This document shows positions 22,436 through 58,460 of a stretch of 64,000 nucleotides of DNA, in pieces. The translations under genes and the position numbers were made by a program. Every line of letters starts with the position of its first letter. Position 1 is the stretch's first letter. The DNA comes from Callorhinchus milii (Eukaryota). Location of the stretch: NCBI RefSeq assembly GCF_018977255.1, contig NW_024704742.1, positions 55,368,001-55,432,000 on the forward strand, in the 5' to 3' direction. The notes below the pieces were generated by a model that saw only the letters and a list, made by a program, of their open reading frames with translations, did not search any database and was not told the origin of the DNA.

Positions 22436-22779
22436 CAGAATAACCCATTGCACTTTGAGATGTTTCAATGTGATTAGGTGCTTTATCAAACACAATTATT
22501 AATATCTAACTTTGTATTTTTAGTTTGCGAATCACTTATAATTTTATAATTAATAATTATAATAAGAACTACAAGAAAAATGGTCTTAAAAAAAACACTG
22601 AAGTGGTCAACGATCATTTTTGGATGGCTACAATTCTGAAGCCTAAAGTGGGAGGTAGCATTTGTTGAAAGAGAACCCAGGCATCAAAGACATGTAACTG
22701 AGTCCCTACTGTGCAAAGTGATTAATGAAAGGAGATCAAAGTTACTTCACCTTTATATCCTCAAATCCCATCATCGCAG

Positions 22780-23481
22780 CCTGCTTTTCTGACTGGAGGG
22801 AAGTGTACAATGCCATCCCCCCAGGGATCGGTATTAGGACCACTGCTCTTCTTAATATATATAAATGATCTGGACTTGGGTATAGCAAGTACCATTTCCA
22901 AGTTTGCGGATGACACAAAGTTAGGTAGGGTAGTAAACAGTGAGAAGGATAGTAGCCAACTGCAGGAAGACATAGACAGAATGGTAAAATGGGCAGACAC
23001 ATGGCAGATGAATTTCAATGTGGAGAAATGTGAGGTAATGATTTTGGAAGAAAGAATGAGGGGAGGCAATATAGGCTGGTAATACAATCTTAAGGGGGGT
23101 GAAGGAACAGAGAGACCTGGGGGTGCAGGTAAATGAATCCTTAAAGGTTGCAGGACAGGTAGATAAAGCTGTATTATTATTATTATTAATATTATTATTA
23201 TAATAAGCGCATATGGGATACTAGGCTTTATAAATAGGGGCATAGAGTACAAGAGTCAGGAGGTTATGATTAACCTATATAAAACACTGGTTAGGCCTCA
23301 GTTAGAATATTGCACCCAATTCTGGGCACCACACTATAGGAAGGATGTTAAAGCATTGGAAAGGGTGCAGAGGAGATTTACAAGGATGGTACCAGGAATG
23401 AGTGACCTTGATTATGAGGAAAGGATAAAGAGGCTGGGATTATTCTCATTGGAGCAGGGAAGGTTACGAGGAGACCTATTA
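22780..23481 (+). mobile_element. CR1 LINE (host), RT C-terminal part, 5' piece
   Basis: PQGSVLGPLLFLIYINDL, FADD catalytic motif, LVRPQLEYC, VQRRFTRM; frameshifted. Confidence 0.95.
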
Positions 23482-25148
23482 AGAACATAACATAAGAACA
23501 TAAAAATTAGGAGGAGTAGACCATTCGGCCCCTCTAGCCTGCCCCGCCATTCAATAAGATCGTGGCTGATCTATTCTACCTCCACCTACCCGCCTTATCC
23601 CCATATCCCTTAATCCCTTTATCCACAAGAAATCTATCAATCTCCATCTTGAATATGTTCAAGGACTGAGCATCTTCAACCTTTTGGGGTAGAGAATTCC
23701 ATAAATTCACTACCTTCTGAGTGAAGAAGTTTTTCCTCAACTCAGTGCGAAAAGGTTTATCCCTAATTTTAAGACTCTGACCCCTGGTTATAGTTTCTCC
23801 AACCAGGGGAAAAAGTCTCCCACTATCTATTCTGCTGTGCCCCTTAATAATCTTATAGGTTTCCATAAGATCACCTCTCATTCTTCTATATTCTAAAGAA
23901 TATAGGCTTAAATTGCTCAACCTCTCCTCATAACTCATCCCCCTCATCTCTGGTACCAACCTATTGAATCTACGTTGTACCCCTTCCTAGACGAGTACAT
24001 CCTTTCTTAAATAAGGAGACCAAAACTGCACACAATACTCTAGGTGATGTCTCACAAGGGCCCTATACAGTTGCAACAAGACTTCCCTACTCTTATATTC
24101 TAACCCTTTTGTAACAAATGCCAACATACCGTTAGCCTTCCTAATTGCTTGCTGTACCTGCAAACTAACTTCTTGTGACTGGTGTACAAGGACACCCAAG
24201 TCCCTCTGAACTCTAACACTATCTAGTCTCTCTCCTTCTAAAAAATAATCTGCTCTACTGTTCTTGCCACCTAAGTGGATGACCTCACATCCCACGCTAG
24301 GATGCAAACCATCAGGTCCAGGGGACTTGTCACTTTTTAATGCCAACAATTTGCCTAGAACCAATTCTTTGCTAATGTAAATTTCCCTAAGTTGCTCCCT
24401 ATCATTAACCCCTTGGTTCATCTCTATTTCTGGTAAACTTCTTGTGTCTTCTAACGTGAAGACAGAAGCAAAGTATTTATTTAGGGATTCTGCCATATCC
24501 TTATCCCCCATTCTAATTCCTCCTGCCTCTGCCTGTAATGGACCCACATTTACTTTTGCTAGCCTATTCCTCTTAATGTATTTATGAAAACTCCTACAAT
24601 CTGTCTTAATGTTCCTAGCTAACTTGCCCTCATAATCCATTTTCTCACTCTTAATGAGCTTTTTGGTTTTCCTTTGTTGATCCCTAAAACACTCCCAGTC
24701 CTCAGGTTTGCTATTCTTTTTGGCAGTTTTATAGGACTTTTCTTTTAGTTTTATACTTTCTCTAACTGCTCTAGTTAGCCACGGATGAACTGCTTTCCCT
24801 GTGGTATTCTTATTCCTCAAGGGAATATGTGACCACTGAGAATTTTGCACTACATCTTTAAATGTTTGCCATTGTTGGTCTATTGTCATATCCATTAATC
24901 TAATTCCCCAGTCTATTTTAACTAATTCTTCCCTCATACTTGCAAAATTAGCTTTATTTAAATTTAAGACCCTTACTTCAGATTTGACTACATCGCTCTC
25001 TAACTTAATACTAAATTCTATCATGTTATGATCACTCTGCCCCAGAGGAGCCTCAATAGCTATATTATTGACTAGTCCTGTTTCATTACACAAAACAAGG
25101 TCTAGGATGGCCTGTCCCCTAGTTGGTTTCTCAACATACTGCTCCAGA
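23482..25148 (-). mobile_element. CR1 LINE (guest), young, RT domain deleted in frame
   Basis: ORFs 23987-25093 and 23576-23959 share a frame and are separated by one TAG; SDHN (EN end) and SPGPDGLHP join directly to CEVIHLG; (TTATGTTC)n tail. Confidence 0.95.
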
Positions 25149-25537
25149 AGAGGTTTTCAAAATCATGAGGGGATTTGATAGGTTAGAAAGAGAAAAAATG
25201 GTTCCACTGGTGGGTGTGTCGGTGACTCGAGGTCACAGATTTAAAATAGTCTCTAAAAGAGGCAGGTGGGAGGTGAGAAGAATTTTTTTCCCACAGCGAA
25301 TTGTTCGAATCTGGAACGCACTGCCTGAAAGGGTGGTGGAGGCCGATTTGATAACAACTTTTAAAAATGCAATGGATGGGTATTTGAGGAGGACGGGTTT
25401 GCAGGGTTATGGGGAAATGGCTGGGGAGTGGGATTGACATTACATTGCTCTTTTCAAAGAGCCGACACAGACTCGATGGGCCGAATGGCCTCTTTTTGTG
25501 CTGTACGATTCTATGATTCTATGATCTATGATTCTAT
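25149..25537 (+). mobile_element. CR1 LINE (host), 3' piece
   Basis: EVFKIMRGFD..RIWNALP continues the 22780-23481 frame; tail (ATTCTATG)n. Confidence 0.95.
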
Positions 25538-32125: not shown

Positions 32126-32864
32126 GTCAAAAATTGGCCTATGTTTCTCATTTAATTGTTGAATGGGCTGACATGCACTGCCAGCATCTCGAGATTTTAT
32201 TTCTCCCACTCATTGTTTTCTGTCTGATGCATTCCCCAATTCCTATCTACCTGGTGCAGTTTGAATAGGTGCAGAGCAGACTGCAAAGTTCAGTAGTTGA
32301 ATTACATTGTTATGTAGAGCCAGCAAGAGAAATAGAAGAAAGGAAGGCAGTTGATGTGATGGACAAGGCAATTAAAAAACAAACACAGCATTGTTCTGAA
32401 CTTTAAATGGGATATCTAAATCAGAGTCACATCAGAGCAAATCCTGAGCCAGGGAAACCAGTTATTATATATTATTTCTTCTGGAGACAAGCTTGCCTAA
32501 AACAATGTAAAAGTGGAATAAATCTGTATCTTCAACAGATCCATAATCCATCTACAATTTGTTCAACATAAGAGTGTAAGAAGAGTTAAGAATGATTAAA
32601 AGACATTTGGCCCACAAAGACTCTTTATTTTAAATCTATCCCTATCTCCTCCATCTATCTTAAACAGATAGATCTTTCAGAGAGCTGGCACAGGTACAAT
32701 GAGCCAAATGGTCTCCTTCTGTGCTATAAATTTCTGTGGTTTTATCTTGTTCAATCTCCTGGGGCAAGGTGCTGTTAAATATCTCTTTAACCTGCAGAGT
32801 AATCAAGCAGAACTCCCGAAGATCAGTCGAACCTTCTGTTATTCAGCCTTGACCATACAATATG

Positions 32865-34510
32865 ATATTACATTTGAAAAGCGCCTTTCACGTCAGGAGG
32901 ACATCCCAAGACACTGATCAGTCAGGGATTAGGACCTGAGTGGGGGGCAGGGGGCTGGGGGTTGGGATCTGGAAGGATGGAAGGCAGAGAGTATAGGAGG
33001 GTGGCTGAAGTCATGGTCGAAGAGGAGGATCTTGAGACGTGCCTTGAAGGAGGCAAGGGAGGGAACGAGGAGAAGGGAATGTGAGATGGAGTTCCAGAGG
33101 GTGGGGACAGGGAGGCTGAAGGCTCAACTGCCCTATGGTGGGGTGGGCCGGGTGGGGGACATGAAGCAGGCTGGAGCTTGCTGAGCGGCCGGAGCGGAAA
33201 GGTTGATAAGGGGTTAGCAGTTTGGAGAGGTAGAAAGGGACAAGGTCATGGAGGGATTTGAAGGTGAGGATGACAAATTTGAAGTCGATCCTCTGAGGCA
33301 TGGGGAGCTAGTGGAGCCTGGTGAGGGTGGGTATGAAGAGGTCACAGAACCTGGTGTGAAAGAGGACACAAGCTACAGAGTTCTGGATGATCTGCAGCTT
33401 GTGAAGGGAAGAGTTAGAAAGGCAGACAAACATAGCTAAGCCTGGTTGTAATGAAGGCACGCATGAGGGTTTCGGCAGCCTGAGGGGTGAGGCAGTGGTG
33501 GGGTCGGGTAATGTTGCGGCGGTGGGGAAGGCAGCTTGGGTCATGGAAGAGATGTGGGGGAGAAAGAATAGTTGAGGGTCGAAAAAGATGCTTAGGTTCT
33601 TGACTGGCTCGGTGAGGTGGAGTGTGGAAATGTGGATGCTGATGCTGCCAGTGCCTAAGATATGGAGATGCTGGCGCGAGCCAATCAGGAGTTCCTCGGT
33701 CTTGCTGACGTTCAATGTAGAAGGTTGGTTCTCATCCAGGGCTTGATGTCCGACAGACAGTCTGTCAGACATCAGTGGTCCTGGGGTACAGGGTGGCGGC
33801 AGAGAGATAGAGTTGGATGTCATCCGTATACATGTGGAAGTTGACCCATGTCTCTGAGTGATTTTACCAAGAGGGATCATGTACAGGTTGAAGAGGATAG
33901 AGTCAAGGACAGAGCCCTGAGGAACCCTGAGGAATTTCGAATCAAGAAAAAAAAATTGGTTACTTCAATCCACGACTGTTTGTGGGACATTGCTGTGCGC
34001 AATTGGCTGCCGCGTTTCACCCACAAATATACAGTCAATTCACTTTACAGTATATTCTGTGAAGCGCTTTGAGAAGTCTAGAAGACGTGAAAAGTGTTAT
34101 ATCAAATGCAAGGATGTGGGGTATAGCGGTTAGGATGTGGGGTATGGTGGAAGGTACAGCTGGGTGGTGTGGTCTCAGTCAGGTAGAAGGTGTCGCCTGG
34201 GGTGATTCAGGTTTCAGTGAGGGTCAGGATATCAATATTTTCATCAACAATGATGTGGTTGATGGTGAGAGCTTGTTAGAAAGAAAGCGGACATCCCCAT
34301 AGGGATGGGGGTATTTTGGGGGAAAAGCAGCTCAGGTCGGGGCGGCAGCCAAGATGTGCACACTGAGGCAGGCCATTAGTGCATGCAGATTGGGGGGTGG
34401 GGAAGTGGGCTAGAGGTAGCGCAGATCAGGGATTGGTGGCAGGGCACCAGGTTGCCCAGCCTGGGAGATAACTGAACAGCCTGTAGGGAAAGGCAGAGGA
34501 GAGGAAGAAG
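32865..34510 (-). mobile_element. L2-A with 3' end, RT C-terminal half, endonuclease N-terminus and 5' region; internally deleted
   Basis: PQGSVL and YTDD near 33820-33930; 34190-34295 translates to (N)VRFLSNK..TINHIIVDENIDILTLTET (APE endonuclease start). Confidence 0.85.
33950..34115 (+). mobile_element. SINE family A 3' half, located at the L2 deletion breakpoint
   Basis: AATCCACGACTGTTTGTGGGAC through ATCAAATGCAAGGAT. Confidence 0.9.
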
Positions 34511-34558
34511 GTAAAATAAACTATACTATATCTGATTCCAGGGATTCAAACCTGGTGG

Positions 34559-34609
34559 GCGGAAGTGACGTCACACGGGGAGTTAGGCAGTAAATTGTGA
34601 AATGGCGGC
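34559..34609 (+). promoter_or_regulatory. ETS-CRE composite motif plus YY1 motif
   Basis: GCGGAAGTGACGTCAC at 34559-34574 and AAATGGCGGC at 34600-34609, heading a CpG-rich block of about 390 bp. Confidence 0.55.
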
Positions 34610-35137
34610 TCCACCTGAACCCAATAATGGCCACCACTCGGCCCCTGAGACCTCAGCCCTGCCTATCGCTACTTGCTGGCTCCTGCCGTCCTTGCTCCTG
34701 GAGGCCTCACTACTTCTACTCACCTCTCACACTGACCCGCTCCCGCACTGACCTCGCGAGGGAACAGCTCAGTTTGTCCCCCTGCCACCGCCCCTGGTTA
34801 CCTTCTGCCAACTGAATCTGCTCCGGCCGCTCTACCCGAGTTTCTCTTCTTCTCCCGCTGTTGTTCTCCGAACCTTCAACCCTCACACCCGTCACTGCCG
34901 GCTCGTTCAACCACGTTCTCAGCTCTCGCTCCTCGCGTCCGCTCATAGATAACAAGGTTTTAATACCACTGGAATCATTTTCCGACGCAGACTATTTGAT
35001 CATTTTTCATCTTGTTCTCATTCTGAGATTTGTTGGAAATATCAAATACAAGGAATATTATTTGTTGAGTTTTTGTTCAAGGAGTTAATTGATATGTTGC
35101 TTTCATTTCATGCTTATTCGACATAGGCACAATTCTG

Positions 35138-35463
35138 TAATAATAATAATAATAATAATCCTTGCATTTGATATAGCGCTTTTCACGTCAGGAGGACGTC
35201 CCAAAGCGCTTCACAGAACACACTGTAAAGTGAATTGACTGTATATTTGTGGGCGAACGCGGCAGCCATTTGCGCACAGCAATGTCCCACAAACAGTCAT
35301 AGATTGAAAATGACCAATTTAATTATTGTTTGGGGCTTTTTGGAGGGATTATTATTAGGCGTGTGGAGTAAGGAAACTTGCCCAAGGTTTCGCCCTGCCT
35401 GGAATTGAACTCAGGTCTCTCACTTGCAAAGCAAGTGCTCTAACCACTGAGCTACAGGACTCC
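35138..35463 (-). mobile_element. SINE family A, short form, full length, L2-type loop; young
   Basis: Many intact CpGs; hairpin AGCGCTTTGGGACGTCCTCCTGACGTGAAAAGCGCT; pure (ATT)n tail. Confidence 0.95.
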
Positions 35464-56550: not shown

Positions 56551-58334
56551 CCTAATTAAATGCCAGTTATTGTTGATTAATGCTAGGTAATTTGAAGCGC
56601 TCGGGGACACTACCCTGGGTGAAGGGCGCTATATAAATGCAAGTTGTTGTTGCACTTCTAAGAACTGGACTACACTTTACATAATAGATACGTGTAAAGA
56701 ACCATTGAAGTCATTTTTACCGAATTTCACTGAAAAATACTTGCTTTTATTAGGCAAGTAAACTGGTAAAAATGTTTTTCTCTCTAATTTGAACGCCAAA
56801 AAAACAAATTAACCAATCTATTTACAGTGATCTGGATGGTGGGCACACATCATTTCCTGGCAATGCAAACACTCTGATTTGTGAATCCAGTTGTGTGATC
56901 ATACGTGAGGTGACGCACAAAGTTTTGAGAGAAATGGTGTGTCAATACTGACCTTCGCACATTTGGATCTTCTAAAAGAATGTCTGTAGTACAATACAAA
57001 CTTGTGCACAATGTATTGTTAGAATTAGAGATCGAAAAAATAACAGACAGAAGACAGAAAATTGGAGATTCAGCGGCAGAGATGGTAAAATACAATTTAC
57101 ATTTATATTAGAGACAGAGAAAAAGAGACTCAGAGAGTGAGAGTGAGTGAGCGAGAGAGCCACAGAAAGATTTTTATCAAACTTACGCAAGGTTTTATGC
57201 AAATTCCCTGCCCCTTTCATTTTCTCCCATTTGTGTCCAGCAAAAAATGACCCTCTTATTTTGTGGATAAAAAGGACTTTAATAGCCTTTAGATTGTTGT
57301 CATCACATGTAATGCTGTCAGAGATCACCAGAGGTTAGGTTGAAGAAGGCCCTCATTGTTCCAATATAAATGAAGCCACCCAGAGATCATCATGACCTTC
57401 ATCTGTTCATACATAAATTGGTAGGAAACATGTACAACCGAGAACAATTCTGCTCTAGTTTCCTTTTTTGTTTACAATGTCATCTTATTTAGCTTTAATT
57501 TTTTGAGCAACAAATTGCCATTAAACATGAAACTATTCATGATTTTTATTGCAAAGCAGATTCTGTAATTGATTTTTTTGCTACGTATTCTAAAGTGGAC
57601 ATCAAATTCACATCATCGGTAAATTATTTTCAATACACTGTAAATATTTCCTTGAAGTACATGGATCATCGTACGAAGACTGAATAAGAAACAAGCTGCA
57701 TATATATTTGAATGCCTTTCGTACTTGATATGTAATGTTTTATCCTATCACTTTATGCTTATTTTAAATTGTTTTCTTAAACTGGTTTTGCATTGGTATT
57801 TGAGATTGCACTTTTCAGGATGTGCTTGCATTATTTTTAAAAATAAATTATATCAATGCACAAAAAAAGAAAGTAACAGAAGAATAGATGAATCCTTTAT
57901 TAACCTGCTTTCCGTATAGACTGAAACTTGTCAATATTTTAAGTAATATGGAATCACTATGGTATTCCTAAATATATTTCATTCCTTAATCATCTCCATA
58001 ATAATAAGAAATGGTACAGAAATGTGGTAATAACACATTTAGAACTGAACACCCCTTTCTTTAACCTTCGCCTCCCCCACCACCATTCACAGTTTCAGGA
58101 GAGTTTTTTGCTCCAAATTTTTCAGAATGGGAAAGGTGCCATTTAGTTTTTTTAATAGAGTAAACAAATAGATGTTTGGATTTCTTGCTGTTTTTTTTAC
58201 TTTAAATTTTTACTTTTCTATTGTAAGGCAATCCTGTTGTAGTACAGTTGTCCAGGGAACAATATCTCAGATGCTGCATTAGAAGGCAGCATGAAAAANT
58301 AACTGATTTCTGGCTTGTCAGATCACTGCAGCTG

Positions 58335-58460
58335 TTACTTCCTGCGTGTTGTCTGCACGCGCGCTATGAGCAAAACATGCTGCTGACATTACTTCTATGA
58401 CAAAGTGATGTTAGCAGGGCTTTCTGCACGCAGTCTGTGTGGGAGTGACGTCAGCAGCAA
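58335..58460. promoter_or_regulatory. Candidate enhancer/promoter motif cluster
   Basis: TGACGTCA(GCA) at 58446-58456, TGCTGAC at 58381, TGCACGC at 58354 and 58425, GCGTG at 58344; CpGs retained in non-repeat DNA. Confidence 0.4.

What the first reader, a model, noticed from the sequence alone, without database searches (positions are those of the whole stretch)
34550..34950. Housekeeping-style promoter module (exact ETS-CRE, YY1, CpG-rich) back-to-back with an L2 5' end
Seen: GCGGAAGTGACGTCAC, then AAATGGCGGC 25 bp later, then about 350 bp of C-rich, CpG-retaining DNA. It diverges from a minus-strand L2 that retains its EN start and upstream region. Known: ETS-CRE (GABP/CREB) and YY1 motifs mark proximal promoters, and YY1 positions L1 initiation. 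Inference: either the L2's own 5' internal promoter flipped by a twin-priming-type inversion (the geometry fits, with the 5'-most point at the junction), or a host or exapted promoter. L2 5' ends are rarely preserved.
Basis: partly seen in the sequence, partly recalled or inferred. Interest (0 to 1): 0.7.

Follow-up and report, generated by a model that had tools for sequence, protein, structure and literature searches.

The report
Outward-facing promoter motifs in L2 leader
The promoter-like stretch is the ordinary built-in front end of a family of L2 jumping genes in a cartilaginous fish, not an accidental flip or a host gene's promoter, and its outward-facing layout recalls the two-way promoter of human LINE-1, though no transcription was measured.

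Summary
The motifs are real: ETS-CRE 16-mer at 34559-34574, YY1-type AAATGGCGGC at 34600-34609, and the CpG-richest 401 bases of the window. They face away from a minus-strand LINE endonuclease start at about 34300. Public contigs laid at 80% likeness show paralogous copies that run straight across the supposed inversion point in the same orientation (5 listed records, at least 3 distinct paralogues), with no strand-changing joint among 11 listed; repeat signal ends near 34935. So the module is multi-copy and native to the family's roughly 650-base leader, 340-390 bases inside its apparent 5' end. Its 45-base core is shared with another subfamily. [quoted passage not shown] Two weaker leads: a strong splice acceptor and donor would put the module in a 243-base leader intron, and a short antisense frame starts at the YY1 ATG. 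This copy is dead (about 570 codons of ORF2 missing, SINE at the gap). New variant of a known kind.

The parts
32867..33930 (-). 3' part of L2-type ORF2 (RT from the PQGSVL motif on) and 3' tail, frameshifted
   Evidence: tblastn of fetched ORF2 proteins; 70-75% DNA identity to other truncated copies in the window; phmmer
33944..34115 (+). 5'-truncated SINE (abundant family with tRNA head in other copies) sitting at the ORF2 gap
   Evidence: self-BLAST; tRNA heads of sister copies; Deu-type label is recalled
34116..34305 (-). start of the APE-type endonuclease of ORF2, with one stop and small indels
   Evidence: highest repeat depth
34306..34480 (-). C-rich N-terminal extension / proximal leader in front of the endonuclease
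   Evidence: sequence; joints from 34342-34367 to 34445-34540 in other copies
34481..34512 (-). polypyrimidine tract ending in CAG|G: candidate splice acceptor
   Evidence: only YAG|G with at least 88% pyrimidine in the 26 bases before it on both strands of the window; other copies mostly keep pyrimidines
34528..34574 (+). conserved core of the leader: GC box overlapping the ETS-CRE 16-mer (34559-34574)
   Evidence: depth peak outside the endonuclease and shared loose end behind 34574
34586..34594 (+). decayed E2F-type site (other copies read GGCGGGAAA; motif identity recalled)
   Evidence: differences at 34589 and 34591 in 8 contigs of X1 and 12 of X4
34600..34609 (+). YY1-type motif AAATGGCGGC; its ATG (34602) opens a 49-codon frame antisense to ORF2 (116 codons with one internal stop)
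34716..34726 (-). donor-like GAG|GTGAGT (intron would start at 34723); a second, AAG|GTAACC, at 34801
   Evidence: 5 such consensus donors on both strands of the window
34751..34947 (-). distal CpG-dense leader, apparent 5' end of the element near 34935-34950
   Evidence: CpG o/e 1.07; depth above single copy up to the 34902-34935 bin, single copy from 34936

Best explanation
34300-34945 is the native 5' leader of an L2-type LINE family, read on the minus strand. SHOWN: the layout (endonuclease start - pyrimidine tract - GC box/ETS-CRE - YY1 motif - CpG-rich distal part) is repeated collinearly in other genomic copies, and the 45-base core is shared with at least one other subfamily. INFERRED: the element RNA starts near the CpG-dense distal end (about 34940), because a LINE copies only what it transcribes and copies reach that far; the motif cluster 340-390 bases inside is the internal polymerase II promoter, bound by GABP/CREB, Sp1, E2F and YY1; GABP-type sites drive both directions, and the YY1 motif lies in the orientation that host genes show just downstream of their start, so a second, outward (antisense) start between about 34575 and 34600 is likely, as at the human L1 antisense promoter. 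This copy is a dead, once full-length insertion whose ORF2 later lost about 1.7 kb; its proximal CpGs are decaying, its distal ones are not.
For:: X1 record 6 and X4 record 21 (34489-34672, 26 differences), X4 record 20 (34445-34617, 28 differences), X7 record 32 and X12 record 16 (34515-34630, 18 differences) bridge 34552 by more than 31 bases each side: 5 of 32 listed records (930 not shown), at least 3 distinct paralogues; 11 of 11 listed joints are same-strand skips, five linking 34342-34367 to 34445-34540 and two linking 34663/34737 to 34823/34876; depth peak at 34528-34595; loose end behind 34574 in 13 (X1) and 12 (X4) contigs shares one consensus that again holds ATGGCGG and GGCGGGAAA; motifs and CpG. 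Papers: ETS-CRE 11-mer lies mostly in regulatory DNA (PMC3464117, section 17 and passages); GABP directs bidirectional transcription (PMC2077898, abstract); downstream YY1/TISU motif has one orientation (PMC2518114, passages); L1HS has a YY1 peak at about 450 next to its antisense promoter at about 400 (PMC4908685, section 7).
Against: No transcription start, strand or factor binding was measured. The same paper on TISU says most functional YY1 sites occur in either orientation, so orientation is a weak guide; the YY1 motif alone is not beyond chance in this window. No listed contig spans the whole leader, and none was seen linking the endonuclease proper to the module; the links start 40-70 bases upstream of it. 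The 5' end is placed from depth bins only, and the copy may be truncated there. Tables were cut (124 differences, 362 loose ends, 930 pieces hidden). 8 of 16 well-supported differences in 34550-34720 are CpGs lost in this copy, so this copy's module is decaying. That the endonuclease and RT pieces are one insertion is assumed.
Confidence: 0.72

Rival explanations
1. Head-to-head composite: 34575-34945 (+) is the 5' end of a second element, or a captured host first exon, that became fused to the L2 in a master copy and was amplified with it.
For: The + strand is C-rich like LINE sense strands in the window and opens with a good-context ATG; subfamilies differ right behind 34574.
Against: Loose ends left of the core share a purine-rich consensus (7 contigs in X4, agreement 0.77; also X12), not random flanks; repeat signal stops near 34935 rather than running on to the right; no protein relative for the + frame and none of 229 fetched proteins hits upstream of 34330.
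Confidence: 0.13
2. The module is family-derived, but this copy has been kept or co-opted as an unmethylated host promoter or enhancer.
For: Distal 200 bases show no CpG decay (o/e 1.07, TG/CA 0.99); the 16-mer is perfect; 7 of 9 listed differences in the + frame are synonymous (p 0.008 before correction).
Against: Three CpGs flanking the 16-mer and the E2F-type site are lost in this copy; no host domain above Pfam cut-off in 213 non-repeat ORFs of 55 aa or more; the 9 differences are a cut, post-hoc sample.
Confidence: 0.08
3. Twin-priming (or later) inversion flipped the L2's 5' UTR at this locus.
For: Geometry, and an imperfect 26-base inverted repeat at the two borders (34529-34552 and about 34952-34977; 22 matches; 0.17% of 20,000 equally spaced window pairs score as high).
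Against: Paralogues are collinear across the junction and the right arm is single-copy; no direct repeat of 6 or more bases between the element's flanks in the stretches searched; the L2-clade ZfL2-1 gave no 5' inversion in HeLa or DT40 cells (PMC4245944, passages); the repeat was picked after looking.
Confidence: 0.03
4. The core is conserved for another reason (RNA structure, splicing or translation signal, or coding on the minus strand) and the promoter look is incidental.
For: The depth peak is centred just left of the 16-mer (34528-34561) on a short hairpin-like stretch next to the acceptor-like tract.
Against: An exact 16-mer with adjoining GC box, E2F-type and YY1-type motifs in two subfamilies; no coding similarity in any frame.
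Confidence: 0.04

Closest known systems
Human L1 5' UTR with sense promoter, antisense promoter and ORF0 (PMC4908685; sections and passages read)
   Same: Internal CpG-rich leader; YY1 motif several hundred bases inside; outward-facing initiation predicted; short antisense frame
   Different: Different LINE clade, no sequence relation tested or expected; ETS-CRE composite instead of the L1 sites; activity and peptide not shown here
ETS-CRE (GABP/CREB) housekeeping promoters with downstream YY1/TISU motif (PMC3464117, PMC2518114; passages read)
   Same: Exact 16-mer; ATGGCGGC 25 bases on; CpG-rich context
   Different: Multi-copy part of a retroelement, no host exon found next to it; only the core of TISU matches
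Single-ORF L2 sub-clades (ZfL2-2/UnaL2 type; bioRxiv 10.1101/788562 section 6 read)
   Same: No ORF1 detected; C/T-rich sense strand; endonuclease near the 5' end
   Different: About 650-base leader with a G-rich CpG part, promoter cluster and acceptor-like tract; sub-clade placement not tested
Chicken CR1-B 5' UTR promoter (PMC2734521, passages read)
   Same: Internal promoter in the sister clade, with Sp1-type sites
   Different: About 240 bases, E-box based, and no antisense small RNA was detected there
L1 intra-5'UTR splicing and SpIREs (PMC5860796, passages read)
   Same: Donor and acceptor inside a LINE leader that would excise factor-binding sites
   Different: No spliced copy or spliced RNA joint was listed here

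Membership tests
L2/CR1-group LINE | N-terminal APE endonuclease | tested here: met
   34275-34135 aligns to endonuclease starts of full-length ORF2 proteins
L2/CR1-group LINE | RT domain and C-terminal region on the same strand | tested here: met
   33925-32891, E 9e-69 to P0003 in a local search; same insertion as the endonuclease is assumed
L2 clade proper | 3' tail shared with a partner SINE | tested here: met
   32868-32909 matches SINE tail 35162-35204 at 88%
L2 clade proper | Placement in an RT tree with labelled L2 and CR1 references | not tested
   No labelled references fetched; the L2 label rests on recalled C-terminal motifs
Twin-priming 5' inversion | Other copies carry the piece in the opposite orientation | tested here: not met
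   Collinear paralogues, 0 of 11 listed joints change strand
Twin-priming 5' inversion | Target-site duplication around the whole insert | tested here: not met
   No shared 6-mer or longer between 32821-32870 and 34926-35010; old copies can lose it
Twin-priming 5' inversion | Short overlap or deletion at the inversion point | tested here: inconclusive
   Imperfect 26-base inverted repeat; right arm not shared by other copies
Unique host housekeeping promoter | Single copy | tested here: not met
   26 and 25 contigs share a difference at 34556
Unique host housekeeping promoter | Adjacent host exon | tested here: inconclusive
   No host Pfam family above cut-off in 213 of 372 ORFs of 55 aa or more; shorter exons not scanned
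Unique host housekeeping promoter | CAGE or ATAC signal | not testable with these tools
   Only contigs were available
L1-type bidirectional leader (works like) | Promoter motifs several hundred bases inside the element's 5' end | tested here: met
   340-390 bases inside the apparent end
L1-type bidirectional leader (works like) | Antisense transcripts start there | not testable with these tools
   Contigs show neither strand nor start
L1-type bidirectional leader (works like) | Antisense ORF kept open across the family | tested here: inconclusive
   7 of 9 listed differences synonymous, but an open frame of this length is expected in 36% of shuffles; no relatives

The most novel reading that the evidence does not exclude
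This L2 family is built like a host housekeeping gene: a CpG-island first exon, a 243-base intron (34723-34481) that carries a bidirectional GABP/CREB-E2F-YY1 promoter, and ORF2 as second exon. Unspliced RNA would be the transposition template that keeps the promoter, spliced RNA the ORF2 message, and the outward start would make an ORF0-like peptide or drive neighbouring host genes: an independent origin, in a non-L1 clade, of the primate L1 antisense-promoter design.
Probability: 0.13. Interest if true: 0.75.

Novelty: new variant of a known kind. Interest (0 to 1): 0.42.

Why it matters
L2 is among the oldest vertebrate retrotransposon groups, and my paper searches found no description of an L2 internal promoter. 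A family leader with an exact, subfamily-conserved housekeeping motif cluster gives a concrete, mutable candidate. If it fires outward, full-length L2 copies could seed antisense or chimeric transcripts as primate L1 does, which would make bidirectional LINE leaders a repeated invention. If it only drives the element, it is a tidy annotation of a dead copy.

Tried and rejected
No whole genome was held, so the genome-wide BLASTN was replaced by one laying of contigs. No RNA holder listed for this locus: not evidence either way. One paralogue crosses the module unspliced in two runs guessed to be RNA from two studies (X7 record 32, X12 record 16); RNA status, strand and start are unknown, and that copy's CRE has a change, so it is not used as evidence of expression. 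The RNA-guessed runs have no cover at 34358-34493 or beyond 34697, so splicing could not be tested there; in the two genomic runs no joint from about 34480 to 34724 or 34802 is among 11 listed. Twin priming, a MITE bounded by the 26-base inverted repeat, and a unique host promoter were rejected. Protein searches: + frame, 112 candidates, none at E 0.01; endonuclease piece, 2 candidates, none; a language-model look-alike search of the + frame was not done, so remote similarity stays open. A 76-codon minus-strand frame from 34946 ends just past the donor, but one of three frames is open that long in 14% of shuffles and Pfam finds nothing. As a control, the true endonuclease frame shows only 4 of 11 listed differences at third positions, so the 7 of 9 in the + frame is not the pattern of a plain dead coding copy and is left unexplained. 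Rfam: only 4 SINE tRNA heads. Metagenome scans: 0 loci for a 32-base pattern; 21 loci for a 20-base pattern, none similar beyond the motif, 1 of 21 beside a LINE ORF2 and there behind its 3' tail. Earlier notes: no look-alike stretch.

Full report
Setting. The window is repeat-rich animal DNA (about 30% self-matching). The three best named or closest hits of a LINE frame from the window include proteins labelled Callorhinchus milii at 63-66% identity, so the host is a cartilaginous fish, most likely the elephant shark. No whole genome was held. Of 372 ORFs of 55 aa or more, the 213 mostly outside repeats were scanned with Pfam; the only hit above cut-off was a reverse transcriptase at 22729-23079. 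No host gene is evident, though short exons would be missed.

The ETS-CRE 16-mer lies at 34559-34574 and AAATGGCGGC at 34600-34609, both on +, 25 bases apart. The ETS-CRE core is well beyond chance (2 matches with up to 2 mismatches against 0.07); the YY1-type motif alone is not (3 against 1.88). The 401 bases hold 25 CpG, the maximum in the window. Retention is strong only distally: o/e 1.07 and no TG/CA excess at 34751-34950, against 0.52 at 34551-34750 and 0.22-0.39 in the LINE body. On the minus strand 34275-34135 aligns with the endonuclease start of full-length ORF2 proteins. It breaks at 34116; a 5'-truncated SINE fills 33944-34115; the RT part resumes at about 33925. Against P0015 the gap runs from residue 54 to 627. 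The copy is dead. The L2 label rests on a 3' tail shared with the SINE and on recalled C-terminal motifs; no labelled tree was built.

Four public runs hold 84-90% of the stretch's words. I laid two of them (X1, X4; one study) and two runs guessed to be RNA (X7, X12; two other studies) on 34120-35130 at 80% likeness. 449 and 421 contigs were laid from X1 and X4, most under 90% alike, beside near-identical contigs of the locus itself, so the diverged ones are paralogues. Of 32 listed pieces (930 not shown), five cross the supposed inversion point at 34552 in one strand with more than 31 bases on each side: 34489-34672 in X1 and X4, 34445-34617 in X4, 34515-34630 in X7 and X12, that is at least three distinct paralogues. 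All 11 listed joints are same-strand skips; five link 34342-34367 to 34445-34540, two link 34663 or 34737 to 34823 or 34876. None changes strand. Depth is above single copy up to the 34902-34935 bin and equals it from 34936 to 35003. An inversion predicts the opposite on each point. A unique promoter is excluded by 26 contigs in X1 and 25 in X4 that share a difference at 34556; 13 and 11 do so at 34624, 3-5 at 34709-34715. Depth is no copy number, so I give no family size. One result favoured the inversion: an imperfect 26-base inverted repeat at the two borders, matched by 0.17% of 20,000 control pairs. It was chosen after looking, its right arm is not shared by other copies, and I leave it as probable chance. 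No target-site duplication was found, and the L2-clade ZfL2-1 produced no 5' inversions in cell assays (PMC4245944, passages).

What the family shows. Outside the endonuclease, depth peaks at 34528-34595, far above its neighbours. Behind 34574, 13 contigs in X1 and 12 in X4 leave the alignment with one consensus, another subfamily, which again contains ATGGCGG and GGCGGGAAA. Left of 34516, loose ends are purine-rich on +, a pyrimidine tract on the element strand. In the present subfamily, differences at 34589 and 34591 (8 and 12 contigs) give GGCGGGAAA, which I recall as an E2F-type site; it has decayed in this copy. A GC box overlaps the ETS half. Of 16 well-supported differences in 34550-34720, 8 are CpGs lost here. 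So the cluster is older than this copy, shared between subfamilies, and decaying at this locus.

Mechanism. Shown: layout, multi-copy state, shared core. Inferred from how LINEs copy themselves (established knowledge): since copies reach about 34935, the element RNA starts there or further out, and the cluster is internal, 340-390 bases inside. Inferred from motifs: it is a polymerase II promoter. The ETS-CRE 11-mer lies in known regulatory regions in 83% of its human occurrences (PMC3464117, section 17); GABP sites make promoters bidirectional (PMC2077898, abstract only); the downstream YY1/TISU motif has one orientation relative to the start, although YY1 sites in general do not (PMC2518114, passages). 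Read that way the cluster faces outward, antisense to ORF2. Human L1 offers the parallel: a YY1 peak at about 450 beside the antisense promoter at about 400, with ORF0 downstream (PMC4908685, section 7 and passages). It may work like the L1 leader; it is not an L1.

Two weaker leads. First, 34512-34481 on the element strand is a pyrimidine tract ending in CAG|G, the only such site at 88% pyrimidine or more on both strands of the window, and a consensus donor lies at 34724/34723 (5 such in the window). They would enclose the module in a 243-base intron. Against: the element strand is pyrimidine-rich anyway, no spliced joint is among the 11 listed, and L1 leader splicing gives promoter-poor dead copies (PMC5860796, passages). 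Second, the YY1 ATG opens 49 codons (116 with one stop). Seven of nine listed differences in it are synonymous (p 0.008, uncorrected, cut table), but 36% of shuffles are as open, and no relatives were found.

Literature. Eight searches of the open library on L2 or CR1 promoters, antisense promoters, splicing and inversions (listings, with passages read only for the papers cited) returned no description of an L2 internal or antisense promoter; the nearest was chicken CR1-B, where no antisense small RNA was detected (PMC2734521, passages). Single-ORF, C/T-rich L2 sub-clades are known (10.1101/788562, section 6; its supplements were not seen). Subscription papers and Repbase or Dfam entries were not searched and may already hold this leader. 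Earlier notes of this scan report another LINE in this genome with 88-base leader monomers and a one-off internally deleted L2; I did not check them.

Verdict. Observation confirmed; interpretation partly supported; native outward-facing promoter cluster in an L2-type leader, confidence 0.72; new variant of a known kind; interest 0.42.

Noticed in passing
window 22700-25156: Tail-to-tail pair of CR1-type LINE fragments (+ at about 22700-23600, - at 23579-25156); the minus copy has a 389-aa frame that jumps over the RT core.
   Followed up: partly
window 58350-58460: Second CRE (GGGAGTGACGTCAG at about 58441) in non-repeat DNA with a CGCGCG run upstream, close to the single N at 58299; possible regulatory site.
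   Followed up: no
window 34111-34150: Two 19-base direct repeats 21 bases apart where the SINE tail meets the broken endonuclease; one near-identical contig of X4 over 34132-34538 carries 21 gap letters.
   Followed up: no
window 34529-34552 and 34952-34977: Imperfect inverted repeat bounding the CpG-rich block; right arm lies just outside the repeat signal; unexplained.
   Followed up: yes
L006 2930-3070: In an unrelated metagenome contig the same GC box/ETS-CRE motif with a YY1-type motif lies about 70 bases behind the 3' tail of a LINE with an open 945-aa ORF2.
   Followed up: partly
L001, L002, L004, L011, L014, L016, L017, L018, L021: Nine related metagenome loci share a repeat around the motif; in five a YY1-type motif abuts or overlaps it, suggesting the cluster recurs in other animals' repeats.
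   Followed up: no
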